NCBI GenBank assembly: GCA_016215335.1
Contig: JACRKE010000037.1
Location: forward strand, 2,924 to 66,923
From: Candidatus Vogelbacteria bacterium
GTDB lineage: Bacteria; Patescibacteriota; Minisyncoccia; Phycocordibacterales; JACRKE01
Length of the DNA stretch: 64,000 bases
Reading direction: 5' to 3'
A model generated the notes under the pieces. The model ran no database searches and had not been told where the DNA came from. It saw nothing but the letters and a program-made list of their open reading frames with translations. This document shows, piece by piece, positions 5,240 to 63,994 of this stretch (positions are counted from its first letter, which is position 1; each line of letters starts with the position of its first letter). The position numbers and the translations under genes were made by a program.

Positions 5240-5385
5240 AATTTGACACTAAAGACATACACATGTTAATATAATAATCGGATTCGCGGCTGGGCAGTCG
5301 CGAAAATTTGTTGAAATGGAGGCGCCGAGTGAACAATAATCGAAGCAAGGACAACGAGCACGCGGAAGTATCGAGAGTCGAGTGC

Positions 5386-5889
5386 ATGACTGACAATGAA
5401 TTTTCAGCATGGGAAAGAGGGGCGAGCACGGAACCCGATCCATTGAGGACGATCCACGAAGCACGCTCGGGACTGCGAGATGTCGCCAGTCAGTCCAGTA
5501 TCAAGTCGGCTGGCAGGAGAATGTTCTCCTGGAGGCTGTCAGGCAACCTCCAGTTGATTCTAGCCGTAGCTTCAATGCTCTGCACTGTCGCCATCTTGCT
5601 CTGCTTGATGAGGATCAGGGCAGAGCGTGAGATTGTGTTTGCTGTCAACGCGACACTGCGGGCCGAGCTCTCTGATACAAGAGAACAACTGGCAAAGATG
5701 GAAATGAGTGTCGGACTGTTCAAGCAGTTGAACGGACTAGAGTTCTTCAGAGCCAAGGAAGGTGCAAGGCTGTCGGCGAGAGCTGCAATCTTGCACAGCA
5801 ATCTCGATACTCTTTTCACGACGCTGTCAGATAAACAGCGTCACAACAACAGCACCGCGAGAAGCACTCCCATTCCAATAGTCAAGTAA
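5386..5889 (+). CDS. hypothetical membrane/coiled-coil protein inside a GC-rich patch
   Basis: First in-frame ATG (MTDNEFSAW...) of ORF 5308..5889. One hydrophobic segment (LILAVASMLCTVAILLCLM) followed by a coiled-coil. Local GC clearly above surroundings. Confidence 0.3.
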   Translation: MTDNEFSAWERGASTEPDPLRTIHEARSGLRDVASQSSIKSAGRRMFSWRLSGNLQLILAVASMLCTVAILLCLMRIRAEREIVFAVNATLRAELSDTREQLAKMEMSVGLFKQLNGLEFFRAKEGARLSARAAILHSNLDTLFTTLSDKQRHNNSTARSTPIPIVK

Positions 5890-10089: not shown

Positions 10090-10533
10090 TTAGTTAATCA
10101 GATTATGATTTTTGAGCTCATCATAGAGCTTGTCCACGAGGGCATCATGAAATGCGTCCAGTATAAATGGGTCTTCTTCCACAACCTGCTTGATTGTTTG
10201 GCTGATTCCTTTTTCAAAGATAGTGGCCATAAGAGCGTTAATCTTAGCCACAGCATCGTTGTCTAGAGTATCCAAATAAGTCGGTCTCTTGGCTTTAACC
10301 ACGGGTGCGACTTTGGACGAAGCGGACGGGCTAGTTGTGGGCGGGGTGATACTCATTGCCTGGCCCATTACCTCTCCGATTTTTTCAGCCACAACATGAC
10401 GTACCAGCTCTTTTTCCTCGACTATGCCATGTCCAGCTTCAAGCATTCTCCTTTTCTCCTCAATCTGCCTAGACAGCTCGGCTATCTCAGCCTCCACATT
10501 TCCGCGATTTATTTGATCAGTCATAATATCCAT
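10090..10533 (-). CDS. hypothetical coiled-coil protein
   Basis: 147-aa ORF immediately downstream of the VirD4-like gene; no motif. Confidence 0.3.
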   Translation of the reverse strand: MDIMTDQINRGNVEAEIAELSRQIEEKRRMLEAGHGIVEEKELVRHVVAEKIGEVMGQAMSITPPTTSPSASSKVAPVVKAKRPTYLDTLDNDAVAKINALMATIFEKGISQTIKQVVEEDPFILDAFHDALVDKLYDELKNHNLIN

Positions 10534-41237: not shown

Positions 41238-41267
41238 TTCACTTGGAAGCTCGGCTTCCAAGTGAAT
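41237..41267. repeat. REP-like palindrome copy (ATTCACTTGGAAGC-TCGG-CTTCCAAGTGAAT)
   Basis: Perfect 13-bp stem; fills exactly the gap between the convergent stop codons of 40980..41237 and PBP1A. Confidence 0.8.
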
Positions 41268-51902: not shown

Positions 51903-52118
51903 AAGACTCCACTCGCACCCTTTTCTGGGTACGGATATTTTCTTGCTAGAAAATTCCTCGTGCTCGCGCCGTCGCGCTCCCAAGTCCCAGAAAAGGGTGC
52001 GAGTTCCGTCATTGCTTATTTCAAAACATCAAAAAACTGTCTTCTGGGCAGTTTTTTGATGTTTTGAAATGGGCTTATCCACATCTAAAACTTGCAAATA
52101 GACAGGGGGGTTTGTTGC

Positions 52119-52148
52119 TTGACAGTTGTCAGCTAAATGTTATACAAT
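52119..52148 (+). promoter_or_regulatory. consensus sigma70-type promoter (TTGACA-N16-TATACAAT) with an operator-like palindrome TGACAGTTGTCA over the -35
   Basis: Read directly; 68 nt upstream of the SD/ATG of the GC-rich island gene. Confidence 0.5.
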
Positions 52149-52215
52149 AGGCTTGGAAAACTAACTAATTTTGGCCGATGAAACGGCCACGACATCGAGC
52201 TCTAGGAGGGCCACG

Positions 52216-53367
52216 ATGAAGTATCTTGAGAACCTTTTCAAACTATTTGTTCTGGTTTGTATTTCCGTGAGTTCGGCTGGTGCGGATTGCCATCCGGGCC
52301 ATGTTGGCAGTGCGGGCTCGACGTCTTCGACATCGAGCCCGAGGATCGTATCCGCCGCGAAACATAAAGCGGCGCGCCAACACAGGTCGGCCCCGAGATC
52401 GCGGGTGACGGAGGCGCCCGTGGAAGCCCCTGAAGCTGTTATGCACCGCTTCTCTCGGACAAGTTTCCACGTCAGAGACGAGTCGAGTGCTGGCACCGCG
52501 GCTCGCATGATTCGCGACTGGCTTGCGGGCAAGAGCTCGTCGAGTCCAATGCGGGCGGGTGTGACTCGTGAAGAGTACGCTGAAGCGCTCGGCTGCTCTT
52601 CGCCCGAAGAGGCAGCGCAGAAGGTGGCTGGCATGCACCTATACCACGTTGACATAACTATTACCCAGGATCTTTTCGAAATGGCCTACTTGGCCGCAGA
52701 CGAGAGGGTCCACTGGGCAAGTTATCGGTCAATGCCGGAGGGGACGTGGGCCTTGTTCGACAAGGAGTCGTCCATCGGGATTGACCTTGGCGACGAGCAC
52801 GACCCAAAGCGAGGGGGGTGCTTCAACCCTTTCCGGTTCCATCCGGAGGAGGTCGAGCATCAGGAACCGCCACCTGAGCACATGCACGTCGCCAAGGGCA
52901 ACATGCCGACTCAGTGTCGGCAGCGATGCTCGGAGGGCTTCATGTCTGCTCCGCCACGCCGGGTGCAGATTCGAGAAGCTCGACCACGCTACGCATCGGC
53001 GACCTATCGGCAGCCGCCTCCAAGGTTCGTGATGCGGCCGCAGTTCAAGCGGCGGCAGTTCAGGCAGTACAGGCCGCATCAGTACCGCGGTCCGCACTTC
53101 CGCCAGGCGCCGCCGCAGATGGTGCGTACGCGCCGTGGTCCGCCCCAGCCGGGACCTCAATGGCGCGGCGTTCCACGAAGTCCGGTCTATATTCCACCCC
53201 AGGCTCGTGGCGGACCGATGAACCCCTACAGCCAGCCGTTCAATCCGGTACCCCGGTCTGGCGGTGGACCGACGAACCCTTACGGTCAGCCATTCCAAGG
53301 TCTGTCTCGAGGTGGTGGGCCGGCGAGTCCTGGCGGAGGGTTCAACCCTCTGCCACGGAACTACTAG
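52216..53367 (+). CDS. exported Pro/Arg/Gln/Gly-rich protein encoded in a GC-rich island
   Basis: First in-frame ATG, preceded by AGGAGG at 52204-52209; signal peptide (LFKLFVLVCISVSSAGA); C-terminal third consists of RGGPxNPYxQPF-type repeats; local GC far above window average. Confidence 0.45.
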   Translation: MKYLENLFKLFVLVCISVSSAGADCHPGHVGSAGSTSSTSSPRIVSAAKHKAARQHRSAPRSRVTEAPVEAPEAVMHRFSRTSFHVRDESSAGTAARMIRDWLAGKSSSSPMRAGVTREEYAEALGCSSPEEAAQKVAGMHLYHVDITITQDLFEMAYLAADERVHWASYRSMPEGTWALFDKESSIGIDLGDEHDPKRGGCFNPFRFHPEEVEHQEPPPEHMHVAKGNMPTQCRQRCSEGFMSAPPRRVQIREARPRYASATYRQPPPRFVMRPQFKRRQFRQYRPHQYRGPHFRQAPPQMVRTRRGPPQPGPQWRGVPRSPVYIPPQARGGPMNPYSQPFNPVPRSGGGPTNPYGQPFQGLSRGGGPASPGGGFNPLPRNY

Positions 53368-53405
53368 AGAACCAGAACAAGAAGTACCCGAACTATCCCA
53401 AAACA

Positions 53406-53443
53406 AGAAGCCTTGCTTCCTAATGCATTTGGAAGCAAGGCTT
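53406..53443 (+). terminator. strong hairpin after the GC-island gene
   Basis: gaagccttgcttcc-taatgcattt-ggaagcaaggcttc, 14-bp perfect stem, then aaagcctgttt. Confidence 0.5.
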
Positions 53444-53767
53444 CAAAGCCTGTTTGGCGGATAGTCCGGGCCAAACCCAAGGGCGGCGAGCACTTGCTCG
53501 CGGGTTTCAGTGGAAGGAGGACGATATGACAGCGAGAGAGCGCATGTCCCGCCCGACTTCCACTCTCTCATTAAGTTGTTGACTAAGGCTTAAAGTAAGC
53601 ATAGCCTAGTCGAGAACTTATAAGAGAATTCAACAGGACATATACAATTTCGTCTTTACGAAGCAATCGGGCCATGGCGGTCCATGGGTCTCAATTGCTT
53701 CGCGTTAGCTCGCAAAGACGTCCAAATTGTGAATCCTTCGAGCATATTAATGAGTAATTTAAACATT

Positions 53768-56700
53768 ATGAAAATAGATAAAATCTTTAACAAGCGAGCC
53801 ATCGCGCTCTTCACGTTTCTGTTTTCAATAATATTGCCACTTCAAGCGAGTGCATATGCCGCCATGAATACGGATCCGCAGGATTACCCGACAGTGGCAG
53901 TAGTTAATGTTCGCACTAACCCTGTTCCGTCACAAACTGTATGGAGCACATCTGAAACCGCGCGACCTGGTGACCCCATGAATGTCCGTATCTATTTTCA
54001 CACTGACAATGCATCCACCGAGCCGGCTCGTCAGGTACGCGCCAGGATTCAGATGCCAACTGGCAACTCGACCCAGTTCACAATTTCTGGAAGCGTTGGT
54101 GGAACAAACACTAATCTTTCGACTGGTCAATCAACTATTACACTAAACCCCGCCGAACAGCAGCATATTATAATCCGACCGAATTCAGTGAAGTGGTTCC
54201 CAACTCAAGCATCGATACAAGCCAACCAACCTGCTCCATTTCCTAATGGTCAGACAGGAGATGAAATTTTCACAAGCGGTGGAGTACTACTCGGTGATGT
54301 TCCTGGTGGGTGGCCGAATCAAGGCGCGATAGTCGCTGATTTTTGGATCAGTAATGACGCGCCCGTAGCGCCCGTTGTTACAACCAATCCCGCAACCAAC
54401 GTGACCGTGAGTTCAGCAACACTGAATGGTAATGTCACAACGAACGGTGCCCCAGGAATGACCGCATGGTTTGATTGGGGGACTGACCAAAACAACCTTT
54501 CGAATCGCACTCAAGTCATTTCGACATCGGGCGGCGTCTATTCGGCAAACTTGAACGGACTTTCCTCAAACACAACTTATTACTTTAGAGCATCCGGCAA
54601 GGCATCAGATTCAGTGCAAATTTTCAGCGGTGCTACATTGAATTTCACCACAGGTAATAACCCCGCATCAGTCTGTCCAGCAGTGACTACCTCGCCGGCA
54701 ACATCCGTCACTCAAACTTCCGCAACTATTGGGGGGTCAATAACCGGAACTTCGGGTTCGACTGTTACTCGTTGGTTTGATCTTGGTAATTCGCCTTCAA
54801 ATTTAGGACAATTTACTCAAGAGATTCCAGCAAATGTCGATGGATCAGTTTCGCAAAATCTTTTCAACCTTCAACCAAATCAGATCTATTATTACAGATT
54901 AGTTGCAAGAACATCTAATCTTTCATGTCCGGGTGCCGTGAACGGTATTATATTGGGGAACGCTTTGAACTTCACAACGGGAGCGCAAGCACAGGGCATA
55001 AGCGCCACCACAAATCCGGCAACTTCGGTAACTCAGGCTTCAGCAACCCTAAACGGTGCCACTACCTTGAACGGTAACACCAATGTTACGCGATGGTTCG
55101 AATGGGGCCCAACTCAAGGACTTGGTGTGCTTACAGCGCCACAGAATGCTTCGGACTCGAACTATCAGGACGCGATCGGCAATCTAAGCCCAAATACAAC
55201 TTACTATTTCCAAGCTGTTGCGAGAACACAAACAGGTCAAGTGGCGAGAGGTGTCATACTGCCGTTCGCTACACAGGGTACGGTTAATAGTTGTCCCACG
55301 ATAACAACTTTATCGGCTACCAACTTAACCATAAACGGTGCCACATTGAACGCGACTGTTTCGGGTATTACTGGCATTGGCCCAGGCATGTGGTTTGAAT
55401 ACGGCCCAACAACAAGCTACGGTTACACCACAACCATACAAGCTCCGCAGAATGGTCAGAACCAAGCTTTCGCCGGAAATCTGACCCCCGGCCAGACGTA
55501 TTTCTTCCGTGCCATTCTGCAAGCACCTAACTGTGCAGTTACAAATGGAGGTCAGATGTCATTTACACTTGGGCAACAAGCACAAAATCTTTCCGTTACA
55601 ACTCAATCTGCTACGAATGTAACGGTGAGTTCTGCGACGTTGAACGGTTACCTAACCGCATCGAACTATTCGAACGTCACAAGGTGGTTTGAGTGGGGCA
55701 CGAACTCTTCATACGGCAATCGCACAAACACCCAGTCCGCTTATTCCGCCGGAAATTTTAGCGATTACATTTCCGGACTTTCGCAGAACACTACTTATTT
55801 CTTTAGGGCAGTGGCACAAGATGGCAACGGGAATGTCGCCTACGGTTCACAGCTTAACTTCACCACTCCATCATCTGGCGGTAGCGCTAACTTCTATAGT
55901 TGTCCTAACTACACCATAGGAACGCTTACGGCTTCTCCAATTGATTCAACTTCCGCATACTTGAGAGGAGTTGTGAATTCAAACAGTTCGAGTGGTTATA
56001 GTTACACAACATGGATTGAATACGGTCCGACAACTTCCTACGGCATGTCCACAACTCGTCAATATAATTCTGGAGGCACATTTACCCAGTTAGTAGCAAA
56101 TCTTCAGCCCGGAGTGATTTATTATTACAGGGCAGTGGCCCAGGTTGAGAATAACGGTTACTCCGGGGGTTACTTCAACAGTTTCTTCTGCGGTTATCAG
56201 AACATCCAGTATGGAAATTCACTTACAGTGAGCACCCAAAGTCAGACGTTCGTTCCTTATGTACAGCCGGTGATTCAGCCGCAGCCTGTAATTATTCAAC
56301 AGCAAATTACGCAAAGCGTAATTACCCAACCTGCAACATCAATAACTCAAACCGCTGCCAGAGTGAATGGTGTTGCGACAATTAGTAATGTTCCCACAAA
56401 TGGATGGTTTGAGTGGGGTACGAGCGTTAACCTTGGCAGTCAGACCAACCCAGCGGATCTTGGTAACTACTCTTCAAATACTTTCTACGCGAACTTAAAC
56501 AGTTTGCAGCCAGGACAGACCTACTATTTCAGAGCGGTTATTCAAAACAAGCAAAACGGTAATACCTTAAAAGGCGACGTACTCTCGTTCCGCACCCTTA
56601 CTCCGGTTTACGTTCCACCTGTTTACGATTACACGCCACCGGTTAAACCAAGTACCGCTCCAGTAAAATTAACGATTGCAAAGGAGGCTCAAAATATCTC

Positions 56701-57628
56701 TTCTCCAAATGGAGGTATTGGATGTTCAGACGCTGTGACTGCAAAAGCAGGAAACACAATCGCGTACTACATAACAGTAAAAAATAGCGGAGGGGTAGAG
56801 GCAAATGGTGTCTTGGTTAAAGATGTAATGCCTGATTTCCTACGGTTTAGAGCTGGAAGTGATAATGCCAGATATGATGAGTCATCGAGAGAAGTTTCTT
56901 GGAATATCGACCTTCGCGCCGGTGAGACAAAGCAGCTGCAGGTTCAAGCATTAGTCGACCGCGTAACAGAGAATAAGACAGTAAAGAATACAGCATCAAT
57001 AACTTACGGCTCAACGGTAAAGCGCTCAGGTACTCCATGTTTGATAATCATGGTGGACCCCGTAACTCTCGTGTTGTCACCCGACAAAAACTCCGTAAAC
57101 GCTGGTGACACTCTTACGTACACTGTAATCTACAGAAATAGTAGTGGTGCAAAGATAAGTTCCGCTGTACTTCGAGTATTGCTTCCTGCGGACACGACAC
57201 TCATTTCTGCGGAAAAGGGAACGATTTCTTCATCTGACGGCACGATCGTTCTAACCGTTGGCGACATGCAGCCAAAAGAGGAGGGAAGATTTAGAATTAC
57301 AGTCAAGATTGGTAATACTGCAGCGGCAGGGTCAACTTTGACTGCGGTACTTGTAATGGATTATCGCGATGCTGTCGGGCAGGAACAGGCTGAAGCGCAC
57401 AGTTTTGTACCAGTATTAATCGGAGGTTCAGCTGCGACTCAGATTCTCGACTCATCCATGGAAAAACAAGGAACGGGTCTCGGAGCTCTGTTCGGTACGG
57501 GTTTCTTGCCTCAGACCTTGATTGGTTGGCTCGTGCTCATTGTGATTTTACTCGCTCTCTACTTCATTGGACGTAAGATTTTGAATCCGAATGCTGGAGT
57601 AAGTAAAACAGACGTAATCGTTAAATAA
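53768..57628 (+). CDS. giant surface protein with ~10 tandem Fn3-like ~100-aa repeats, DUF11-like repeat region and C-terminal LPxTx-like sorting signal
   Basis: Signal peptide (MKIDKIF...ILPLQASAYA). Recurrent WF(E/D)WG...Y...L.PNTTYYFRAVA.....G motif at least 8 times. C-terminus ...GFLPQTLIGWLVLIVILLALYFIGRK (LPQTL + hydrophobic + basic). Start could also be 53750 or 53684. Confidence 0.6.
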   Translation: MKIDKIFNKRAIALFTFLFSIILPLQASAYAAMNTDPQDYPTVAVVNVRTNPVPSQTVWSTSETARPGDPMNVRIYFHTDNASTEPARQVRARIQMPTGNSTQFTISGSVGGTNTNLSTGQSTITLNPAEQQHIIIRPNSVKWFPTQASIQANQPAPFPNGQTGDEIFTSGGVLLGDVPGGWPNQGAIVADFWISNDAPVAPVVTTNPATNVTVSSATLNGNVTTNGAPGMTAWFDWGTDQNNLSNRTQVISTSGGVYSANLNGLSSNTTYYFRASGKASDSVQIFSGATLNFTTGNNPASVCPAVTTSPATSVTQTSATIGGSITGTSGSTVTRWFDLGNSPSNLGQFTQEIPANVDGSVSQNLFNLQPNQIYYYRLVARTSNLSCPGAVNGIILGNALNFTTGAQAQGISATTNPATSVTQASATLNGATTLNGNTNVTRWFEWGPTQGLGVLTAPQNASDSNYQDAIGNLSPNTTYYFQAVARTQTGQVARGVILPFATQGTVNSCPTITTLSATNLTINGATLNATVSGITGIGPGMWFEYGPTTSYGYTTTIQAPQNGQNQAFAGNLTPGQTYFFRAILQAPNCAVTNGGQMSFTLGQQAQNLSVTTQSATNVTVSSATLNGYLTASNYSNVTRWFEWGTNSSYGNRTNTQSAYSAGNFSDYISGLSQNTTYFFRAVAQDGNGNVAYGSQLNFTTPSSGGSANFYSCPNYTIGTLTASPIDSTSAYLRGVVNSNSSSGYSYTTWIEYGPTTSYGMSTTRQYNSGGTFTQLVANLQPGVIYYYRAVAQVENNGYSGGYFNSFFCGYQNIQYGNSLTVSTQSQTFVPYVQPVIQPQPVIIQQQITQSVITQPATSITQTAARVNGVATISNVPTNGWFEWGTSVNLGSQTNPADLGNYSSNTFYANLNSLQPGQTYYFRAVIQNKQNGNTLKGDVLSFRTLTPVYVPPVYDYTPPVKPSTAPVKLTIAKEAQNISSPNGGIGCSDAVTAKAGNTIAYYITVKNSGGVEANGVLVKDVMPDFLRFRAGSDNARYDESSREVSWNIDLRAGETKQLQVQALVDRVTENKTVKNTASITYGSTVKRSGTPCLIIMVDPVTLVLSPDKNSVNAGDTLTYTVIYRNSSGAKISSAVLRVLLPADTTLISAEKGTISSSDGTIVLTVGDMQPKEEGRFRITVKIGNTAAAGSTLTAVLVMDYRDAVGQEQAEAHSFVPVLIGGSAATQILDSSMEKQGTGLGALFGTGFLPQTLIGWLVLIVILLALYFIGRKILNPNAGVSKTDVIVK

Positions 57629-57663
57629 TCCTTACAGCTAAAGAGGCCACCAGGATCTCATAA

Positions 57664-57707
57664 AAGCACAAAAATACCCCCCTCCGCCCATTGGCGGAAA
57701 GGGGGTA
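57664..57707. terminator. bidirectional terminator hairpin after the giant surface-protein gene
   Basis: aaaataccccctccgcc-catt-ggcggaaagggggtatttt with a flanking A-run and T-run. Confidence 0.6.
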
Positions 57708-57729
57708 TTTTTGTGCTAAACTATTTCAA

Positions 57730-58179
57730 ATGGCAAGACAAGTTATAACCAAAAGCCTAAAGGAAACACATGATGTGGCTCGCGGGTTTTACTCGTGGCT
57801 TACGCAACAACCGAATGGGTCCGGTACTGGGCATATTGTGTGTCTCAGGGGTGATCTTGGTGCTGGCAAAACGTCATTCACCCAGGGTCTCGCTCTGGCC
57901 ATGGGGGTAGAAGATAATATCACAAGCCCTACGTTTGTGCTCATGAAAAAATACAAAGGCCTTAACGAGAAAAATTTAGTTCACTTCGATGTGTATAGGC
58001 TTGAGAATTCAAAAGATCTCGAGCCTCTTCGATTTGAAGAATATGTCGGAAACTTGAACAATATAGTTGTTGTAGAATGGCCGGAGAAGATTGGCGAAGC
58101 ATTACCGGCACACGCGCATACAGTGCTTTTTAAATTTATAGATGAAAATACCAGAGAGATAACCTTGCCCTATGAGTGA
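57730..58179 (+). CDS. tsaE: tRNA threonylcarbamoyladenosine biosynthesis protein TsaE
   Basis: P-loop GDLGAGKTSF and PTFVLM motif typical of YjeE/TsaE; first ATG downstream of the terminator hairpin. Confidence 0.7.
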   Translation: MARQVITKSLKETHDVARGFYSWLTQQPNGSGTGHIVCLRGDLGAGKTSFTQGLALAMGVEDNITSPTFVLMKKYKGLNEKNLVHFDVYRLENSKDLEPLRFEEYVGNLNNIVVVEWPEKIGEALPAHAHTVLFKFIDENTREITLPYE

Positions 58180-60688
58180 CCAAAGAAAAAAAATAGTTCT
58201 TCTTGATACTCACGCGATTCTTCATCGCGCATACCATGCCCTGCCGGATTTTGCGAGCGACAAGGGAGAACCGACTGGTGCGCTCTATGGCTTAACGGTT
58301 TTGCTTCTAAAACTTATCAAAGAATTTCGGCCGGAGATAATCGTGGCATGTTACGATCTGCCGAAACTTACTTTTAGACACGCAAAGTTTGCTGAATATA
58401 AAGCTGGTAGAGCACAAGTCGAGGATAACTTAATTTCCCAAATTAGGCGTTCGAGCCAGCTTTTCGAGGCGTTTGGAATTCCTATCGTGGCGGCGCCAGG
58501 TTTTGAGGCAGATGACATGCTAGGAACCATTGTAGAAAAGTTGAAAGGTAATAGGAGTTATCAAATTATTATTGCGTCGGGAGACATGGACACTCTCCAG
58601 CTCGTGACAGACGATAATGTGGTTGTATATACTCTGAAAAAAGGTATCAACGACACAATAATTTATGACGAGAAAGGGGTAAAAGCCCGCTTCGGTTTTG
58701 GGCCTGAACTTTTGCCTGATTATAAGGGGCTTCGTGGAGATCCGACTGACAATATACCGGGGGTGAAAGGCATAGGGGAGAAGACTGCAACGGAACTCAT
58801 CCTGAAGTTTGGCACGATCGAGAAAATGTACGAAACATTAGAAAAGCACAAAACACAAACCGTACAAAAACCAAACAAAACACAAAACTCAAAAAACAAA
58901 AGTTCGTCAAAAAACCAAAACGAATTCGGATTGTCACCGAGGATTTTGGATTTATTACTTGCGAACAAAGAAGAGGCTGAATTTTCAAAAATGCTTGGTA
59001 CCATCAGACGCGATGCGCCAATTGATTTTTCGCTAGAGCTGAGTAACTTCAAAGATAATTTCAAAATTGAAACAGCCAAAAAGTTTTTAGGCGAACTATC
59101 ATTTAGAAGCTTAGTTCCGCGACTCAATGAGGTTGCGACCGGAGAAGTTAAGAAACCGCAGATGTCGACAAAACCTAATCATGGAAGCGAGCTCTCTGTT
59201 GACTGGGCAGAAAGCCCTGCGAATGCAATAGATGCTGTTGTCCGAGGCGAGACCTCGGACATGCCGATTGTTGACGTAAATTCTCAGCAGTTCAAACGTT
59301 CGGCTATTATGTATTGGCTTATTGATTCCAGTAAGACCGATCCGACAGGACAACAGATATTTGAATATACCAAAACTAACAATCTTGAAGACGCGGAAAA
59401 TTTTTTATTAAAAAAAATTAAAATCGACAAGCTCGAAGATGTGTATAAGGAAATCGAGCTTCCACTTATTCCCATTCTTGAACGAGTAAAAGAACACGGA
59501 ATGCTCGTGGATGTAGGGTATCTGAAAGAGCTCTCAGATAAATATCATATAGTTTTAAGCCAACTTGAAAAAGATATTTGGGAACTTGCGGGAGGCGAGT
59601 TTAATATTAATTCTCCAAAACAACTTGGGGAAATCATTTTCGATAAACTCGGACTGGGTGGTAAGAAAGTGAAGAAAACCGCAACAGGAAACGCTTCGAC
59701 CAAAGTGGAAGAATTGGAGAAGCTAAAAGGCACTCATCCTATTATTGAAAAGATCATGGATTATCGAGAATACCAAAAGTTACTCTCAACCTATATTGAC
59801 TCTATACCGGAACAACTCGGCAAGGATGGCAGACTCCACTCAGATTTGATTCAGACTGGTGCCGCAACGGGTAGAATGTCGTCTCACAATCCAAATCTTC
59901 AAAATATTCCCATTAAAACTGAACTAGGCAGGGTAATTAGGAAGGCATTTGTTGCGAGCCTCGGATTTGTGCTCGCCGCCTTCGACTACTCGCAAATTGA
60001 TCTACGCATGGCGGCACTGCTCTCTAGGGATCCGCTGTTTATAAAAATATTTCAAGGCAAGAATGATGTACATACGAGTGTGGCGTCTCTTGTATTTAAA
60101 GTTGCACCAGAGAAAGTGGATCGTGAGATGCGAAGACGGGCTAAAGTAATAAACTTCGGAATATTGTACGGTATGGGAGTGAATGCGCTTAAACAAAATT
60201 TAGGCACAGAGAGAAAGGAAGCCGAAGAGTTTTACAAAATGTATTTTGAACAGTTCCATGGGCTTCGAGAATATCTTGATTCTCTAAAAGAGTTTGCCAG
60301 AAAAAACGGCTACACCACAACCTTTTTTGGCCGCAGGAGATACTATCCAAAAATTAAATCCCCGATGCCTTTCGTCCGAAGTATGGAAGAACGTATGGCT
60401 ATGAACGCGCCAATACAAGGCACCTCTGCCGACGTGATTAAACTTGCCATGAGCAAGGCGGATGAAGAACTTAAAAAAGCGGGCATTGAAACTAAAGTTT
60501 TTCCACTGCTTCAGGTGCACGATGAACTAATATATGAAATAAAAAAGGGTGTAGAGAAAGAAGCTACTAAAATAATAATTAAAGCAATGGAAAGCGTGCT
60601 CGACGGGCCGGTACCACTCGAAGTACATGCATCTTTAGGCAAGGATTGGGGAACTCTCGTTGGTACTAATATAGTATATTGTACATAG
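58172..60688 (+). CDS. polA: DNA polymerase I (5'-3' exonuclease + family A polymerase)
   Basis: 5'-nuclease motifs (LLDTHAILHRAYHA, GDPTDNIPGV); polymerase motif A (DYSQIDLRMAA), motif B (RRRAKVINFGILYGMG), motif C (LQVHDELIYE); low-complexity K/N/Q/S insert between domains; overlaps tsaE by 8 nt. Confidence 0.85.
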   Translation: MSDQRKKIVLLDTHAILHRAYHALPDFASDKGEPTGALYGLTVLLLKLIKEFRPEIIVACYDLPKLTFRHAKFAEYKAGRAQVEDNLISQIRRSSQLFEAFGIPIVAAPGFEADDMLGTIVEKLKGNRSYQIIIASGDMDTLQLVTDDNVVVYTLKKGINDTIIYDEKGVKARFGFGPELLPDYKGLRGDPTDNIPGVKGIGEKTATELILKFGTIEKMYETLEKHKTQTVQKPNKTQNSKNKSSSKNQNEFGLSPRILDLLLANKEEAEFSKMLGTIRRDAPIDFSLELSNFKDNFKIETAKKFLGELSFRSLVPRLNEVATGEVKKPQMSTKPNHGSELSVDWAESPANAIDAVVRGETSDMPIVDVNSQQFKRSAIMYWLIDSSKTDPTGQQIFEYTKTNNLEDAENFLLKKIKIDKLEDVYKEIELPLIPILERVKEHGMLVDVGYLKELSDKYHIVLSQLEKDIWELAGGEFNINSPKQLGEIIFDKLGLGGKKVKKTATGNASTKVEELEKLKGTHPIIEKIMDYREYQKLLSTYIDSIPEQLGKDGRLHSDLIQTGAATGRMSSHNPNLQNIPIKTELGRVIRKAFVASLGFVLAAFDYSQIDLRMAALLSRDPLFIKIFQGKNDVHTSVASLVFKVAPEKVDREMRRRAKVINFGILYGMGVNALKQNLGTERKEAEEFYKMYFEQFHGLREYLDSLKEFARKNGYTTTFFGRRRYYPKIKSPMPFVRSMEERMAMNAPIQGTSADVIKLAMSKADEELKKAGIETKVFPLLQVHDELIYEIKKGVEKEATKIIIKAMESVLDGPVPLEVHASLGKDWGTLVGTNIVYCT

Positions 60689-60734
60689 TATATAGGGATG
60701 AAAACCTTGTAGCTCTCGAAATAATCTTAAATTT

Positions 60735-60772
60735 ACCTATATACAATTTACTATTTACCATATACTAACCCG
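60735..60772 (+). promoter_or_regulatory. same upstream motif before ORF 60773
   Basis: TACCTATATACAATTTACTATTTACCATATACTAACCCG-ATG; an oppositely oriented degenerate copy overlaps the polA 3' end at 60668-60702. Confidence 0.45.
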
Positions 60773-61492
60773 ATGATTCATATAATCCACGGAAAAGATC
60801 AATCGAAAGCTTACAAACGCTTTTGTGAAGTCTCAAAAAAGATTCAGACAGATGATCCGACTCTTGCTCTGTATAATTTTTCACCTGAAAATTTCGTCGC
60901 ATCATCACTCGATGAACTCGTGCAAGCCCAGTCACTTTTTGGTGGAGGACACTTGGTGCTCGGAGAAAATCTGCTAAGCAATACTAACTTAAGCGGGGCC
61001 ATACTTGCATCTCTCGAAAACTTGAGCCTATCACCCCATATGTTTGTGTTTTTTGAAGAAGAGCTGAACAAAGAAATCTTAGAGAAAATTAAACCACATG
61101 CCAAAGTTGAAGAGTTTACAATGGCAAAAGGTTGGGACAAAGATCTGGAGAAGCCGGTTTATGCTCTTCAAGATGCTATTGGAGCGCACGACAAAAAAAC
61201 AATTTGGGTTTCATATCAAAAAGTGCTTTATGCAGGTTTCGCTGAAGAGATGATCTTCTGGAAACTGGCAAAATATTTGAAAAACTTGCTTGTTATTCAA
61301 AGGGGAGGCGGGATGTCTGAAATCGGAACCACGAGTGAATATTATTTCGGAAAGTTAAAGGCTCAGTCGAGTAAGTTTAAAGACAAAGAGTTAATTACCA
61401 AACTGGGTGACCTGATTTCAATCTGGCATGATTCGCACAGGGGACTTTGTGACTTTGATCTGGCACTAGAGAGATGGGTACTTGGGATTTAA
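60773..61492 (+). CDS. hypothetical protein (possible DNA polymerase III delta subunit HolA-like)
   Basis: 239 aa; N-terminus IHIIHGKDQSKAYKRF is reminiscent of HolA starts; weak. Confidence 0.3.
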   Translation: MIHIIHGKDQSKAYKRFCEVSKKIQTDDPTLALYNFSPENFVASSLDELVQAQSLFGGGHLVLGENLLSNTNLSGAILASLENLSLSPHMFVFFEEELNKEILEKIKPHAKVEEFTMAKGWDKDLEKPVYALQDAIGAHDKKTIWVSYQKVLYAGFAEEMIFWKLAKYLKNLLVIQRGGGMSEIGTTSEYYFGKLKAQSSKFKDKELITKLGDLISIWHDSHRGLCDFDLALERWVLGI

Positions 61493-61595
61493 ATTTTCGA
61501 TCGGCATTTACTTATCACTAAAACGTGATAGTATGTTCACCGGATAGGAGAAGTTAAAAACTGAAACAACGACCCGGAGTCAAGTGAATTAAGAG

Positions 61596-62315
61596 GTGCT
61601 AGATGCCCATAATACTTGGAGTAGTCGCTACCTTGGTTGCCTTCTTGGTGACTGGAGCGATTCAATGCCAACAATTTACGTTGGCATCATGACAGGTGTA
61701 AGTACGGTCTACATCACTAAGGCGTGGCAACGACAGACTTCGCCCGTACTGGTAACGTGGGTGATATTTGCGTTCGCAACAGTCCTCGCACTTTGGACCG
61801 CCCTCTCGTTTGGCGAGGCGCTTTCGGTCAACGTTCCAAACTTGCTCGACATCCCAGTAACTTGGGGAGTCGCAGCAGTTCTTGTCTATCGTAGGCGAGA
61901 CATTAAGTTTTTCCCAGCAGAGAAACTTGATAAGTGGCTCACCGCTCTGTGTCTTGTTGCGACCGTGGTAGTCTTCGTAGAATGGTTGATTAGTCATGAT
62001 CACAAACACGCGAACAACTGCATTCAGGTGATAATGTCTGTCGCCTATATTCCCACGTGGAGGGGATTGTATAAGGCGGACAAAAACCCAGAAGCTTACG
62101 GTGTTTGGTGCGTCATCTTTATCGTATCAGCTCTCGCTATGCTAATGGGATTCTTGCGAGGGCAGGATGTGGCCATGAAGTACGGTATTAGGGCGACGGT
62201 GTGCGTGGGCGGAGTGCTGTTGCTCATGGTGCGCCTGGATTATTACCTTCCAACGTTCGCCCTCACAAACGGTACAATTCCGGACTGGCTAAGGAAAAAA
62301 GACATTGGTGCATAA
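61596..62315 (+). CDS. polytopic membrane protein
   Basis: The track start is probably non-ATG; first ATG is MPTIYVGIMTG near 61665; ~6 TM helices; moderately GC-rich. Confidence 0.4.
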   Translation: MLDAHNTWSSRYLGCLLGDWSDSMPTIYVGIMTGVSTVYITKAWQRQTSPVLVTWVIFAFATVLALWTALSFGEALSVNVPNLLDIPVTWGVAAVLVYRRRDIKFFPAEKLDKWLTALCLVATVVVFVEWLISHDHKHANNCIQVIMSVAYIPTWRGLYKADKNPEAYGVWCVIFIVSALAMLMGFLRGQDVAMKYGIRATVCVGGVLLLMVRLDYYLPTFALTNGTIPDWLRKKDIGA

Positions 62316-62346
62316 AGGCTAACACACGATAGAAAGGAGAGTCTCT

Positions 62347-62520
62347 ATGCAGTGTCCTGAATGTCAGGCGTACAGTGGGAATACTCACGAGACGTGGTGT
62401 CCTGGTAGAAGGAAAGAAGAAGAGGTGAAGAATTTCGGTAAAGTGCAGGCATACAGATGTCCGACGTGCCAAGCGTACAAAGGCAACGTGCACGAATCAT
62501 GGTGCCAGTATCGCAAATAG
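62347..62520 (+). CDS. small Cys-rich protein with tandem CPxCQAYxGNxHExWC motifs (zinc-ribbon-like)
   Basis: Not in the ORF track (57 aa): MQCPECQAYSGNTHETWCPGRRKEEEVKNFGKVQAYRCPTCQAYKGNVHESWCQYRK. AAGGAG SD 9 nt upstream; followed by a hairpin plus T-run terminator. Confidence 0.5.
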   Translation: MQCPECQAYSGNTHETWCPGRRKEEEVKNFGKVQAYRCPTCQAYKGNVHESWCQYRK

Positions 62521-62603
62521 GAAAGAAGCAGACGAAAGGTTATCAATCCGTGCAGGCCAGACGTAACATCTGACGGCAGAACGTCTTAGATTCTGTCACT
62601 ATC

Positions 62604-62634
62604 GACCCCGCCCAAGGCGGGGCCGTTTTCTTTA
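62604..62634 (+). terminator. intrinsic terminator after the small Cys-rich ORF
   Basis: gaccccgcc-caa-ggcggggcc followed by gttttcttt. Confidence 0.6.
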
Positions 62635-62648
62635 GTAAATTTAATTTG

Positions 62649-62721
62649 TCCGCCCACCTGGATTCGAACCAGGGACCACTTCCTTAAAAGGGAATTGCTC
62701 TACCAACTGAGCTATGGGCGG
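62649..62721 (-). tRNA. tRNA-Lys (anticodon UUU)
   Basis: Minus-strand cloverleaf: acceptor CCGCCCA/TGGGCGG; D-arm GCTC-AGTTGGTA-GAGC; anticodon loop CTTTTAA (U33, UUU, A37); T-arm CCTGG-TTCGAAT-CCAGG; discriminator A; CCA not encoded. Confidence 0.85.
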
Positions 62722-62773
62722 GAATAACAAACTAGTCAGAAAACAATACCAGAAAGTTACACTTAAGTCTATA

Positions 62774-62798
62774 CACTTGGAAGCCGAGCTTCCAAGTG
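62774..62798. repeat. REP-like palindrome copy, inverted orientation (CACTTGGAAG-CCGAG-CTTCCAAGTG)
   Basis: Same core, with loop CCGAG (the reverse complement of the CTCGG loop of the other copies); 14 nt upstream of the HUH transposase start. Confidence 0.8.
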
Positions 62799-62811
62799 AT
62801 ATGATTAAATT

Positions 62812-63453
62812 ATGAGAAACTTAGATTTTGTGGAGGGCGAATATTACCATATTTACAATCGGGGCACTGACAAAAGGTCGATTGTTGAGGATGCTTATGA
62901 TTCCAATCGTTTTGTTCAGTGCCTTAAGGAGTTGAATGTAAAGGACCCGATTGGTAGTATGTTTGAAAATTCATTTAGGAATAAAGACACATCATCAGAA
63001 CCGCTTGTTGATATCGTATGCTATTGTCTGAATCCTAATCACTACCATTTACTTCTTAGCCCTCACGTTGAAAATGGAATAGAAAAGTTCATGCATAGAC
63101 TCGGGACCGCACATACCAAATATTATAACAATAGACACAAGAGAAATGGAGTCTTGTTTCAGGGCAAGTTTAAGGCGGTATATGTAGCGGATAATGACTA
63201 TTTGCTACACGTTAGTTCGTATGTGAATATTAATGATAGGGTACACCAACTTGGAAGCTCGGCTTCCAAGTTGGTGAGATCGAGCTGGGATGAGTATGTT
63301 CTGAACAAGACTGGATTTTGTGTTAAGGATGTTGTTTTGGGTCAATTTAAAAATCCGAATGAGTACAAGAAGTTTGCGGAGGATTCCTTGAGTTCAATGT
63401 TAGACAGCAAGAAAGAACAACGGGAGCTGGATAATTTTGAGTTTGACGTATAG
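62812..63453 (+). CDS. HUH/Y1 single-strand DNA transposase (IS200/IS605 TnpA- or RAYT-like)
   Basis: YCLNPNHYHLLLSP (HuH motif in IS200-typical context) and a downstream Tyr-rich catalytic segment QGKFKAVYVADNDYLLHVSSYVNIN. The ORF continues through an internal REP-like palindrome, so the functional protein may end near 63240. Confidence 0.65.
   Translation: MRNLDFVEGEYYHIYNRGTDKRSIVEDAYDSNRFVQCLKELNVKDPIGSMFENSFRNKDTSSEPLVDIVCYCLNPNHYHLLLSPHVENGIEKFMHRLGTAHTKYYNNRHKRNGVLFQGKFKAVYVADNDYLLHVSSYVNINDRVHQLGSSASKLVRSSWDEYVLNKTGFCVKDVVLGQFKNPNEYKKFAEDSLSSMLDSKKEQRELDNFEFDV
63244..63276. repeat. REP-like palindrome copy inside the transposase ORF (CACCAACTTGGAAGC-TCGG-CTTCCAAGTTGGTG)
   Basis: 14-bp perfect stem; reads in frame as HQLGSSASKLV. 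Confidence 0.75.
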
Positions 63454-63465
63454 GTAGCTTAACAA

Positions 63466-63502
63466 CCCATCTACTTGGAAGCTCGGCTTCCAAGTAGATG
63501 GG
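63466..63502. repeat. REP-like palindrome copy (CCCATCTACTTGGAAGC-TCGG-CTTCCAAGTAGATGGG)
   Basis: 16-bp perfect stem, 13 nt downstream of the transposase stop. Confidence 0.8.
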
Positions 63503-63520
63503 TATAGGAGTTTTAACAAT

Positions 63521-63994
63521 ATGAATCACGAGCTTTGTTTGATACTGCATAACATTCGGAGCGTTTATAATGTTGGGGCGATTTTCCGTACCGCTGATGC
63601 TTGTGGTGTGGCTAAGATTTATCTAACTGGCTACACACCAACGCCACTTGATCGCTTTGGCTTGTCGCGAAAGGATCTACATAAAGCGGCGCTTGGAGCG
63701 GAAAAAAGTGTAGCTTGGGAGCAGATTAAATCACCAACCCGGCTTGTCCTCAGACTTAAGTCAGAAGGCTTAGAAATTCTTGCACTTGAGCAATCTCCTA
63801 AGTCTGTTGATTATAAAAATTCCGAATTAACCAAAAGCTCTGCATTGATTATAGGAAATGAGGTTAGGGGAGTCTCTGAATCTTTACTAGAGAAGTGCGA
63901 CAAAATTTTAGAAATCCCGATGCGGGGCAAGAAGGAGTCTTTGAACGTTTCTGTTGCTACTGGGATACTGTTGGCTCGTCTATTAAATCTGTAG
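63521..63994 (+). CDS. SpoU/TrmH-family RNA 2'-O-methyltransferase (TrmL-like)
   Basis: 157 aa; SPOUT motifs (NVGAIFRTADACG, IGNEVRGVS, ESLNVSVATGILLARL); size fits TrmL. Confidence 0.6.
   Translation: MNHELCLILHNIRSVYNVGAIFRTADACGVAKIYLTGYTPTPLDRFGLSRKDLHKAALGAEKSVAWEQIKSPTRLVLRLKSEGLEILALEQSPKSVDYKNSELTKSSALIIGNEVRGVSESLLEKCDKILEIPMRGKKESLNVSVATGILLARLLNL

What the first reader, a model, noticed from the sequence alone, without database searches (positions are those of the whole stretch)
61596..62640. tRNA-Lys-adjacent segment with an SD-bearing tandem Cys-motif mini-protein not present in the ORF track
Abutting the 3' end of tRNA-Lys(UUU) are:
- A moderately GC-rich segment encoding a polytopic membrane protein.
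- A 57-aa ORF (62347..62520) with a duplicated CP(E/T)CQAY(S/K)GN(T/V)HE(T/S)WC motif, zinc-ribbon-like.
- A good AAGGAG SD, rare in this window, and a clean intrinsic terminator.

The HUH transposase lies on the other side of the tRNA. tRNA 3' ends are classic integration sites.
Basis: partly seen in the sequence, partly recalled or inferred. Interest (0 to 1): 0.5.

Follow-up and report, generated by a model that had tools for sequence, protein, structure and literature searches.

The report
Rare tandem Cys-His mini-protein gene
Next to a lysine tRNA in an uncultured Vogelbacteria genome sit two real but foreign-looking genes, a frameshifted seven-helix membrane protein and a 57-residue protein with two probable zinc-binding motifs; it is a small curiosity, not a classic tRNA-inserted mobile island.

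Summary
The island interpretation is only partly supported.

**No integrase-type island.**
- There is no repeat of the tRNA-Lys 3' end and no integrase.
- GC is only 1.4 sd above the window mean.
- Five distant relatives keep tsaE-polA-holA-[x]-tRNA-Lys-[y]-spoU, each with different genes in the slot. The interval is a variable slot.

**Mini-ORF (62347-62520).** It is a genuine gene.
- Its two C-x2-C-x7-H-x3-C repeats differ mostly at synonymous sites.
- One clear 60-aa homologue (61% identity) lies in a Paceibacterota contig between a lytic transglycosylase gene and rpmE, with no tRNA or membrane gene nearby.
- Both copies keep AAGGAG + 7 nt + ATG and a terminator, in genomes whose other genes almost never have a Shine-Dalgarno (SD) sequence.
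- No Pfam, NCBIfam, PHROG or PDB match reaches significance.

**Membrane ORF.**
- It belongs to an uncharacterised ~200-aa seven-helix family with 203 cluster representatives.
- It carries a +2 frameshift relative to its closest orthologue.

**Best reading.** Two independently distributed genes, probably acquired horizontally, sit in a recombination-prone tRNA-flanking slot. The mini-protein is probably a two-zinc CCHC knuckle protein. Its function is untested.

The parts
61591..61598 (+). Shine-Dalgarno AAGAGGTG serving ATG 61603.
   Evidence: Sequence. The orthologue in L031 has GGAGGTG + 6 nt + GTG at the equivalent place.
61603..61692 (+). Original 5' end of the membrane gene. It is now a separate 29-codon ORF, MPIILGVVATLVAFLVTGAIQCQQFTLAS*, encoding an N-terminal hydrophobic helix.
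   Evidence: The first 20 residues align with the in-frame N-terminus of the L031 orthologue, VIILLGIVAALFAFGATGHV. Mean Kyte-Doolittle hydropathy is 1.62.
61663..61664 (+). +2 frameshift: two extra bases, 'CA', relative to the closest orthologue.
   Evidence: Removing them gives a gapless 236-residue alignment with L031 at 68.6% identity. The MAG and the Logan assembly agree here, but both come from the same reads.
61665..62315 (+). 216-aa core ORF of a seven-helix membrane protein from an uncharacterised family. GGAG lies 7 nt upstream.
   Evidence: phmmer against 1.84 billion representatives gave 203 hits at E<=1e-3, about 200 aa each. Alignment A1 has invariant W32, W148 and R176 and conserved P27, N59, D62, Y128, P130, N141, E143. 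No Pfam, NCBIfam or PDB sequence match. 7 helices in the low-confidence model.
62334..62339 (+). Shine-Dalgarno AAGGAG, 7 nt before the mini-ORF start.
   Evidence: Sequence. The same hexamer at the same spacing precedes the homologue in L023/L025.
62347..62520 (+). 57-aa mini-protein gene.
   Evidence: ORF. A 60-aa homologue, P0220, shares 35/57 residues, with pN 0.23 against pS 0.87 and differences by codon position of 15/13/32.
62353..62400 (+). Repeat 1, CPECQAYSGNTHETWC (C-x2-C-x7-H-x3-C).
62458..62505 (+). Repeat 2, CPTCQAYKGNVHESWC.
   Evidence: 12 of 16 residues match repeat 1 at only 65% nucleotide identity. 7 of the 12 conserved residues use different synonymous codons.
62606..62632 (+). 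Intrinsic terminator: 7-bp GC stem, 3-nt loop, T-run. It closes the two-gene unit 16 nt before the tRNA 3' end.
   Evidence: The homologue in L023 also has a hairpin plus T-run after its stop codon.
62648..62721 (-). tRNA-Lys(UUU), convergent with the mini-gene.
62812..63453 (+). Y1 (HUH) IS200/RAYT-like transposase bracketed by TTGGAAGC-N3-GCTTCCAA hairpins. It is context, not part of the cassette.
   Evidence: PF01797 E 4.9e-9. NCBIfam REP-associated tyrosine transposase scored 24.5 bits, below its cut-off. 5 hairpins in the window against 0.01 expected.

Best explanation
The holA-tRNA-Lys interval of this Candidatus Vogelbacteria genome holds two unrelated, genuine protein-coding genes. Both were most likely acquired horizontally into a recombination-prone slot beside the tRNA, not inserted by a tRNA-targeting integrase.

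**Gene 1** belongs to an uncharacterised family of roughly 200-aa seven-helix membrane proteins. Conserved intramembrane Asn, Asp, Glu and Arg residues suggest a small-solute or ion transporter (inferred). In this genome a 2-base insertion has cut off its extra N-terminal helix, so only the conserved 216-aa core can be made, from an internal ATG.

**Gene 2** is a self-contained expression unit of SD, 57-codon ORF and terminator.
- It encodes a mildly basic 6.7-kDa protein (pI 8.6).
- The protein has two C-x2-C-x7-H-x3-C modules joined by a charged linker.
- Each module most likely binds one Zn2+ through Cys-Cys-His-Cys: Cys3, Cys6, His14, Cys18 and Cys38, Cys41, His49, Cys53.
- Each module would display invariant Tyr and Trp side chains, making a two-knuckle adaptor that binds nucleic acid or a protein partner (inferred).

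**Shown:** both genes are real and under purifying selection, they are distributed independently of each other, the SD and terminator of the mini-gene are conserved, and the signatures of integration are absent. **Inferred:** horizontal origin, zinc binding, and the binding function.
For: **The mini-gene is real.**
- Differences between its internal repeats are concentrated at third codon positions (3/3/11, P = 0.001).
- A 60-aa homologue turned up in a back-translated motif scan, with two hits 105 nt apart.
- The homologue shares 35/57 residues, including all 8 putative ligands, both Tyr, both Trp and both Gly-Asn pairs.
- Between the two genes pN is 0.23 and pS 0.87.
- The homologue was called independently in several JGI and ENA samples.

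**The two genes are distributed independently.**
- The homologue lies in L25 - SLT_2 - mini - L31 - prfA - rpsB - tsf. No tRNA was found in the 10.8-kb locus L023. No member of the membrane family was found in L025-L028.
- Eight contexts of the membrane family lack any Cys mini-ORF or any gene call at the mini-gene's position. The regex scan covered L014-L018. L032-L034 were judged from gene calls only.

**The two genes look foreign.**
- Both have SDs where 36-40 of about 45 native ORFs have none.
- In L025 only the mini-gene, out of 18 called genes, has a canonical SD, at identical spacing.
- The closest membrane orthologue (L031, 68.6% identity) sits on a GC-0.51 fragment where all three starts have GGAGGTG.
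- The other SD-led ORFs in the window are also GC outliers: 52216-53367 at GC 0.62 and 5329-5889 at 0.52.
- Neither gene is present in five syntenic relatives, whose slot contents all differ and whose tRNA orientation flips.
- The frameshift fits decay of an acquired gene.

**There is no integration signature.** There is no att repeat and no recombinase.
Against: - Compositional deviation is mild: GC is +1.4 sd and the dinucleotide distance is in the top 15%. The mini-gene is also 5-7 GC points above background in the other genome, so part of the GC excess is intrinsic to its Cys/Pro/Gly-rich coding sequence.
- Only distant relatives (polA 46-54% identical) could be compared. 'Absent in relatives' therefore does not date or prove an insertion.
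- The organism was seen in one sample only.
- The two mini-genes have saturated synonymous divergence yet keep the identical SD. That may instead mean the SD is selected in these hosts.
- Zinc binding and nucleic-acid binding have no direct support. Single-sequence AlphaFold models were unusable (pLDDT 46 and 44), and no family or structure hit is significant.
- The family has only two secure members.
- The frameshift could be an assembly error, although two assemblies of the same reads agree.
Confidence: 0.55

Rival explanations
1. Remnant of an integrase-mediated genomic islet that inserted into the 3' end of tRNA-Lys. The integrase and the distal att repeat have since been lost.
For: - The segment abuts the tRNA 3' end.
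- It is absent from syntenic relatives.
- It has foreign-looking SDs and a higher GC than its flanks.
- The Logan assembly breaks inside the tRNA.
Against: - No repeat of the tRNA 3' end exceeds chance.
- No recombinase is present.
- The segment is only 1.05 kb.
- The two genes travel separately elsewhere and sit among housekeeping genes.
- The assembly gap (62709 to about 62851) also spans a REP-like hairpin, which explains the break.
Confidence: 0.1
2. The genes are native, and the SD is a selected regulatory device. In SD-poor Parcubacteria the mini-gene's rare strong SD gives privileged or conditional translation. The model is rpsU (bS21) in Bacteroidia, the one strong-SD gene, which is translated when the anti-SD is free.
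For: - AAGGAG + 7 nt + ATG is identical in two genomes whose synonymous sites are saturated.
- In L025 the mini-gene is the only canonical SD among 18 genes, ribosomal protein genes included, and it lies among translation genes.
- Published work on Bacteroidia shows exactly such a single-SD autoregulatory gene (PMC9976891, PMC13000453).
- In Parcubacteria bS21 is often absent and the anti-SD motif was detected in only 48% of 16S genes (PMC9297842).
Against: - In the window other SD-led ORFs exist, and they are GC outliers. This fits 'SD = foreign' better than 'SD = special'.
- The adjacent membrane gene also has an SD, and its orthologue lives in an SD-rich context.
- The protein is only mildly basic (pI 8.6-9.0) and resembles no ribosomal protein.
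- The 16S 3' ends of these organisms were not available.
- There are only two examples.
Confidence: 0.15
3. The mini-protein is a dedicated partner of the membrane protein, for example a cytosolic metal-binding or regulatory subunit of a transporter. The two would form a bicistronic functional module.
For: - The two ORFs are 31 nt apart on the same strand.
- No terminator lies between them, and one shared terminator follows.
- In L031 a gene with a similarly placed SD also follows the membrane orthologue.
Against: - The gene that follows in L031 is a different, hydrophobic protein.
- None of the eight other family contexts has a Cys mini-ORF. L014-L018 were scanned by regex. L032-L034 were judged from gene calls only.
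- The mini-gene homologue has no membrane-family gene in the stored DNA, which reaches 7.3 kb upstream and 8 kb downstream.
Confidence: 0.08
4. The mini-ORF is a chance ORF or a non-coding repeat, and the 'motif' is a DNA-level duplication.
For: No database family or structure matches it. It is apparently missing from the NCBI annotation.
Against: - The repeats are only 65% identical in DNA but 75% identical in protein, with 11 of 17 differences at third codon positions.
- A homologue conserves the reading frame, the start, all ligand residues and a pN well below pS.
Confidence: 0.02

Closest known systems
Small CPxCG-related zinc-finger proteins of haloarchaea (e.g. Brz; Tarasov et al. 2008, PMC2253796)
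   Same: A stand-alone protein of about 60 aa built from Cys knuckles that begin with Cys-Pro-x-Cys. Such proteins are often missed by annotation. The best, sub-threshold, Pfam hit is a short match to DUF7563 over the second CPxC knuckle.
   Different: The residue after the knuckle is Gln, not Gly. The second ligand pair of each module is His-x3-Cys rather than a second CPxCG. The module is tandemly duplicated. The host is a CPR bacterium. No significant sequence similarity exists (E 0.003, 17 bits against a cut-off of 27).
Retroviral nucleocapsid-type tandem CCHC zinc knuckles (own knowledge; Pfam zf-CCHC PF00098)
   Same: A protein of about 55-57 residues with two Cys-Cys-His-Cys modules, each carrying aromatic residues, joined by a charged or basic linker. 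This makes it a plausible model for how the mini-protein could bind nucleic acid.
   Different: The spacing is C-x2-C-x7-H-x3-C, not C-x2-C-x4-H-x4-C. There was no hmmscan hit to zf-CCHC. The linker is longer and mixed-charge. Common ancestry has no support.
rpsU (bS21) of Bacteroidia: the single strong-SD gene in an SD-blind lineage (PMC9976891, PMC13000453)
   Same: A gene for a small protein that conspicuously keeps a canonical SD in genomes whose other genes lack one.
   Different: There is no sequence relation to bS21. The protein is Cys-rich and only mildly basic. SD-led genes are not unique in the window. The anti-SD status of these organisms is unknown.
tRNA-targeted integrative islands and prophages
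   Same: A location flush with a tRNA 3' end, absence from relatives, and foreign-looking signals.
   Different: No integrase, no att duplication, and a size of only 1.05 kb.
PQ-loop / SemiSWEET / PnuC-type 3+1+3 seven-helix transporters (own knowledge)
   Same: About 200 aa, seven predicted helices, and a Pro-containing motif in helix 5 followed by a polar loop. A weak N-half against C-half profile match falls in the expected register.
   Different: No hit to the Pfam families of that clan, apart from one member at E 0.03 to LAB_N. The internal repeat is not significant (hhalign probability 5%). No usable structure model was obtained.

Membership tests
Integrase-mediated tRNA-inserted genomic island | Tyrosine or serine recombinase gene inside the element, usually next to the tRNA | tested here: not met
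   Only two ORFs lie in 61493-62647. Neither hits a recombinase family in Pfam, NCBIfam or PHROGs. The Y1 transposase lies on the other side of the tRNA.
Integrase-mediated tRNA-inserted genomic island | Direct repeat of the tRNA 3' end (attL/attR) at the distal boundary | tested here: not met
   The best local alignment of the tRNA against 61400-62620 scores 8.5-10, against a shuffle mean of 9.2 and maximum of 13. No such family appeared in the repeat finder.
Integrase-mediated tRNA-inserted genomic island | Site empty or differently occupied in related genomes | tested here: met
   Five syntenic relatives have other genes between holA and tRNA-Lys. They are distant, with polA 46-54% identical.
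Integrase-mediated tRNA-inserted genomic island | Clear compositional deviation from the host | tested here: inconclusive
   GC is +1.4 sd, and 7.6% of same-size windows are as high. The dinucleotide distance is in the top 15%.
C4 zinc ribbon | Two CxxC knuckles supplying four Cys ligands, recognised by zinc-ribbon profiles | tested here: not met
   Each repeat is C-x2-C-x7-H-x3-C. All zinc-ribbon Pfam and NCBIfam hits are below cut-off, the best at 14.8 bits against 29.1. A ribbon formed across the two CPxC knuckles cannot be excluded without a structure.
zf-CCHC retroviral-type zinc knuckle | C-x2-C-x4-H-x4-C spacing and a profile match | tested here: not met
   The spacing is x2/x7/x3. PF00098 is not among the hits even at E<=1.
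Small CPxCG-related zinc-finger proteins | CPxCG motifs in a protein of about 100 aa or less | tested here: not met
   CPxC is present twice but is followed by Gln in the window, and by Leu and Gln in the homologue. The second half of each module is HxxWC.
Zinc-binding protein (any fold) | Measured metal content or a confident structural model with a tetrahedral site | not testable with these tools
   The single-sequence AlphaFold model has pLDDT 46. All 8 candidate ligands are invariant in the two members.
Uncharacterised ~200-aa seven-helix membrane family (alignment A1) | Full-length profile match with the conserved motifs P..TW..F, N..N..D, Y.PT, N.E...W, Y..R | tested here: met
   phmmer gave 203 representatives at E<=1e-3. 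The window protein scores 197 bits against the profile. The invariant W32, W148 and R176 are present.
PQ-loop / SWEET / PnuC clan | Profile match to the clan families and a significant 3+1+3 internal repeat | tested here: inconclusive
   No Pfam hit for the window protein. One of 43 members hits LAB_N at E 0.03. The hhalign N-half against C-half comparison gave P 0.007 and probability 5%.
REP-associated tyrosine transposase (RAYT), neighbouring gene | Y1 HUH transposase fold plus flanking REP palindromes dispersed in the genome | tested here: inconclusive
   PF01797 scores 36.8 bits, above its cut-off of 23. The NCBIfam RAYT model scores 24.5 bits, below its cut-off of 80. There are 5 palindromes in the window, 3 at the gene, against 0.01 expected.

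The most novel reading that the evidence does not exclude
The tandem CCHC mini-protein is a translation-linked factor of SD-poor Parcubacteria. Its mRNA would be one of the very few with a canonical SD, so it would be translated according to how available the 16S anti-SD is. That would be an rpsU/bS21-like feedback loop in a lineage that often lacks bS21. The protein would act on the ribosome or on mRNA through its two zinc knuckles. Its position beside L31, RF1, S2 and EF-Ts genes in the second genome would then be meaningful.
Probability: 0.06. Interest if true: 0.8.

Novelty: new variant of a known kind. Interest (0 to 1): 0.35.

Why it matters
If the reading holds, three things follow.
- It adds a previously undescribed and extremely rare family of small tandem Cys-Cys-His-Cys proteins in Candidate Phyla Radiation (CPR) bacteria. 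Gene callers and the NCBI annotation tend to miss such genes.
- It shows that in Shine-Dalgarno-poor Parcubacteria a handful of genes still carry perfect Shine-Dalgarno sequences. That can be used as a marker of recent gene import. If the signal is instead selected, it points to a specialised translation regime in a lineage whose ribosomes are known to be unusual.
- It is a caution that adjacency to a tRNA 3' end plus a GC bump does not by itself indicate an integrase-type island.

The practical significance is modest. There are two family members and no functional data.

Tried and rejected
**Searches for relatives of the mini-protein**
- The word-indexed protein search found only the query itself. 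The real homologue shares no 5-residue word with it, so that null was uninformative.
- The strict back-translated motif found nothing in viral contigs.
- The relaxed motif found nothing in viral contigs. In metagenome contigs it gave one true homologue (L023), four chance hits in 31-37-codon stop-to-stop frames (L019-L022), and one ambiguous single-motif ORF cut by a contig end (L024).
- tblastn against phages gave nothing. Against plasmids it gave one insignificant hit in an ISL3 transposase.
- A profile scan of viral contigs gave nothing.

**Family and structure searches**
- Pfam, NCBIfam, PHROGs and PDB sequence searches with the single protein and with the two-sequence profile gave only sub-threshold noise. 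Examples are DUF7563, the IS1 Zn domain and KP4 toxin at E 0.07.
- Single-sequence AlphaFold2 models of both proteins were too poor for fold searches (pLDDT 46 and 44).

**Other tests**
- Rfam on 61300-63600 found only the tRNA, with no riboswitch or leader upstream of the membrane gene.
- I first suspected that the membrane gene needed the upstream frame. I then rejected that because the wider family starts near ATG 61665. I revived it when the close orthologue L031 showed the N-terminal helix in frame.
- The internal-repeat test on the membrane family was not significant.
- Exact-protein look-ups of holA and SpoU, meant to find strain variants of the site, returned only the same sample.
- The search for related loci with the 43-sequence alignment failed because it has no stretch conserved enough to search with.
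Full report
**1. What is there**

The window comes from a Candidatus Vogelbacteria (Parcubacteria/CPR) metagenome-assembled genome. The membrane ORF carries the NCBI locus tag HZA95_03660. A Logan contig from run SRR12113407 matches window 51950-62709 without a mismatch.

The local gene order is as follows:

| Feature | Coordinates | Strand |
|---|---|---|
| tsaE | 57691-58179 | + |
| polA | 58172-60688 | + |
| holA-like | 60773-61492 | + |
| membrane gene | 61603/61665-62315 | + |
| mini-ORF | 62347-62520 | + |
| terminator | 62606-62632 | + |
| tRNA-Lys(UUU) | 62648-62721 | - |
| Y1 transposase | 62812-63453 | + |
| spoU | 63521-63994 | + |

**2. The mini-ORF is a real gene**

*Internal evidence.*
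- The two 16-residue repeats, CPECQAYSGNTHETWC and CPTCQAYKGNVHESWC, share 12 of 16 residues but only 65% of nucleotides.
- Of the 17 nucleotide differences, 11 are at third codon positions (hypergeometric P = 0.001).
- Seven of the 12 conserved residues use different synonymous codons.
- This is the signature of selection on a translated product, not of a recent DNA duplication.

*How the homologue was found.*
- The word-indexed protein search found only the query itself.
- A relaxed back-translated pattern, C-P-x-C-x2-Y-x-G-x2-H-x2-W-C, was then scanned over the metagenome contigs.
- It gave one contig with two hits exactly 105 nt apart (L023, Ga0209542_10003125).

*What the homologue looks like.*
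- It encodes MQCPDCLAYGGNPHKWWCPGAKKEEGVKTHAHVQVSRCPVCQSYKGNLHKDWCHYRREKH, 60 aa.
- 35 of 57 positions are identical. These include all six Cys, both motif His, both Tyr, both Trp, both Gly-Asn pairs and the PG..KEE.VK linker.
- Between the two genes pN is 0.23 and pS is 0.87 (saturated). Differences by codon position are 15/13/32.
- Gene callers predicted this 60-aa product independently. It was found with the same surroundings on four contigs from different samples.
- It shares no 5-residue word with the query, which explains the null result.

*A possible third relative.* L024 (…LRCPFCDVYKGQKHYEWCK…) is cut by a contig end and has only one visible motif. I count it as unproven.

**3. No known family**

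Pfam, NCBIfam, PHROGs and PDB sequence searches gave nothing above threshold. This holds for the single protein and for the two-sequence profile. The best hit is 17 bits to DUF7563, over the second CPxC knuckle only.

Each repeat has the ligand order Cys-Cys-His-Cys with spacing x2/x7/x3. The spacing is not that of:
- a C4 zinc ribbon;
- the retroviral zf-CCHC knuckle (x2/x4/x4);
- the haloarchaeal CPxCG proteins (PMC2253796).

The protein is mildly basic (pI 8.6; 9.0 in the homologue) and rich in aromatic residues. The single-sequence AlphaFold model was unusable (pLDDT 46).

Zinc binding, with one ion per repeat, is therefore an inference from the invariant ligand pattern. Nucleic-acid or protein binding is a further inference, by analogy with two-knuckle CCHC proteins (own knowledge).

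**4. The membrane gene**

*Family.*
- The word-indexed search found only the query.
- Full phmmer against 1.84 billion representatives found 203 relatives at E<=1e-3. All are about 190-210 aa and 25-36% identical.
- Alignment A1 shows invariant W32, W148 and R176. It also shows nearly invariant P27, F35, N59, D62, W107, Y128, P130, N141, E143 and Y173.
- No member belongs to a Pfam family, and the profile hits nothing in the PDB.
- Named members come from Paceibacterota, Buchananbacteria, Brocadiae and Geminicoccaceae. All are annotated 'hypothetical'.
- Seven helices are predicted.
- A test for a 3+1+3 internal repeat was not significant.
- Conserved polar intramembrane residues suggest a transporter. 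That is inference only.

*Frameshift.*
- The closest relative by far is on an 867-nt ENA contig, L031.
- Removing two bases ('CA', 61663-61664) from the window makes the two proteins align without a gap over 236 residues at 68.6% identity. Nucleotide differences by codon position are 59/25/141.
- The aligned stretch includes an N-terminal hydrophobic helix. In the window this helix is now a separate 29-codon ORF (61603-61692), preceded by the SD AAGAGGTG.
- The gene carries a +2 frameshift. Only the 216-aa core can be made, from ATG 61665 with GGAG 7 nt upstream. That core equals the full length of the wider family.

**5. Is it a tRNA-inserted island?**

*Against.*
- No direct repeat of the tRNA 3' end exists anywhere between 61400 and 62620. 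The best scores were 8.5-10, against a shuffle mean of 9.2 and maximum of 13.
- No recombinase is present.
- GC (0.498) exceeds the immediate flanks but is only +1.4 sd for the window, and 7.6% of same-size windows equal it. The dinucleotide signature distance is in the top 15%.
- The two genes are distributed independently of each other:
  - The mini-gene homologue sits between an SLT_2 lytic transglycosylase gene and rpmE, followed by prfA, rpsB and tsf. No tRNA was found in the 10.8-kb locus L023, and no member of the membrane family was found in L025-L028.
  - Eight contexts of the membrane family are heterogeneous and mostly housekeeping. Five were scanned for the Cys motif and have none. 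In the other three no gene was called at the equivalent position.

*For a variable slot.*
- Five distant relatives (polA 46-54% identical) conserve tsaE-polA-holA-[x]-tRNA-Lys-[y]-spoU.
- The slot [x] holds different genes in each: two small overlapping ORFs, an 848-aa secreted protein, two anabolic enzymes on the other strand, 596-aa and 435-aa proteins, or a 291-aa membrane protein.
- The tRNA's orientation differs among them.
- Closer relatives could not be found. The organism is on record from one sample only.

**6. The Shine-Dalgarno observation**

*SDs are rare in both host genomes.*
- In the window, 3 of 42 long ORFs have even a 4-mer SD upstream of the longest-ORF start.
- Only 6 of 46 have a 5-mer SD before any in-frame start within their first 50 codons.
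- In the 15.5-kb L025 locus, the mini-gene alone of 18 called genes has a canonical SD (AAGGAGGTG). The genes for L25, L31, S2, EF-Ts and RF1 have none.
- The AAGGAG-to-ATG spacing, 7 nt, is identical to that in the window. Both copies are followed by a hairpin plus T-run.

*Two readings remain.*

(a) **The SD marks import from an SD-using lineage.**
- The membrane gene also has an SD.
- Its orthologue lies on a GC-0.51 fragment where all three visible starts have GGAGGTG.
- The other SD-led ORFs in the window are the GC outliers: 52216-53367 at GC 0.62 and 5329-5889 at GC 0.52.

(b) **The SD is selected.** The model is rpsU in SD-blind Bacteroidia (PMC9976891, PMC13000453).
- The SD persists across saturated synonymous divergence.
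- Parcubacteria often lack bS21, and the anti-SD motif was detected in only 48% of their 16S genes (PMC9297842).

I favour (a) but cannot exclude (b). The 16S 3' ends were not available.

**7. Verdict**

- The integration interpretation is only partly supported: the slot is variable and the genes look foreign, but there is no integrase-type signature.
- The mini-protein is a genuine and extremely rare small protein with a tandem CCHC motif that is new in its spacing. I file it as a new variant of the small zinc-finger protein kind.
- Interest is moderate to low. There are two family members, no function, and an intriguing but unresolved SD conservation.

Noticed in passing
window 62774-62798, 63248-63274, 63471-63497, 41240-41264, 53429-53447: A palindrome, TTGGAAGC-N3-GCTTCCAA with longer complementary flanks, occurs 5 times against 0.01 expected. 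Three copies bracket or lie inside the Y1 transposase gene. The one at 63248-63274 is in frame within the ORF and encodes part of ...QLGSSASKL.... This looks like a REP/RAYT-type system in a CPR genome.
   Followed up: partly
L031 539-541 (ENA ERZ27279942 k141_6404209): The closest orthologue of the membrane gene has an in-frame TGA exactly at the codon of the family's invariant Trp (W148 in the window protein). It is either a TGG-to-TGA nonsense mutation or a hint that this organism reads UGA as a sense codon. The gene caller split the gene there.
   Followed up: no
window 52216-53367: A 383-aa ORF with GC 0.62 (GC3 0.67), the strongest compositional outlier in the window. It has a canonical AGGAGG SD, a signal-peptide-like N-terminus, a Pro/Arg/Gln-rich low-complexity C-terminus and no Pfam hit. 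The Logan contig starts just upstream, at 51950.
   Followed up: partly
window 5329-5889 and 10090-10446 (-): Two further ORFs preceded by SD motifs in this SD-poor window: GGAGG before GTG 5329 (GC 0.52) and a double AGGAG...AAGGAG before ATG 10446 on the minus strand (GC 0.46). SD-led starts tend to coincide with GC-rich ORFs.
   Followed up: partly
L003 12418-12491; L004, L005, L006, L009: The tRNA-Lys downstream of polA-holA lies on the plus strand in some relatives and on the minus strand in others. In L003 ARAGORN calls it 'tRNA-Stop (tta)' with the anticodon at position 35, probably a mis-registered tRNA-Lys(UUU). The neighbourhood has been repeatedly inverted or rearranged.
   Followed up: partly
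L025 7620-7898: The gene immediately downstream of the mini-protein homologue encodes a Cys-less L31. A cluster mate is named 'type B 50S ribosomal protein L31'. The adjacency of a putative zinc-binding mini-protein to the zinc-independent L31 form may or may not be meaningful.
   Followed up: no
window 62709 and about 62851 (ends of Logan contigs L002 and L029): The independent Logan assembly of the same run breaks inside the tRNA and resumes inside the Y1 transposase gene. The unassembled gap contains the remainder of the tRNA and a REP-like hairpin.
   Followed up: partly
L024 1090-1387 (minus strand): A partial ORF ending ...LRCPFCDVYKGQKHYEWCKITGEE... has one CCHC motif of the same spacing. 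It is followed by tightly packed small ORFs, each with an AGGAGG-type SD, an arrangement that looks phage-like. It may be a single-motif relative of the mini-protein.
   Followed up: partly
window 61514-61529: A perfect 5-bp inverted repeat, ATCAC-N6-GTGAT, lies in the holA-membrane gene spacer. Two imperfect direct copies of the 14-mer lie inside the membrane ORF (61713, 61999). This is probably chance.
   Followed up: no
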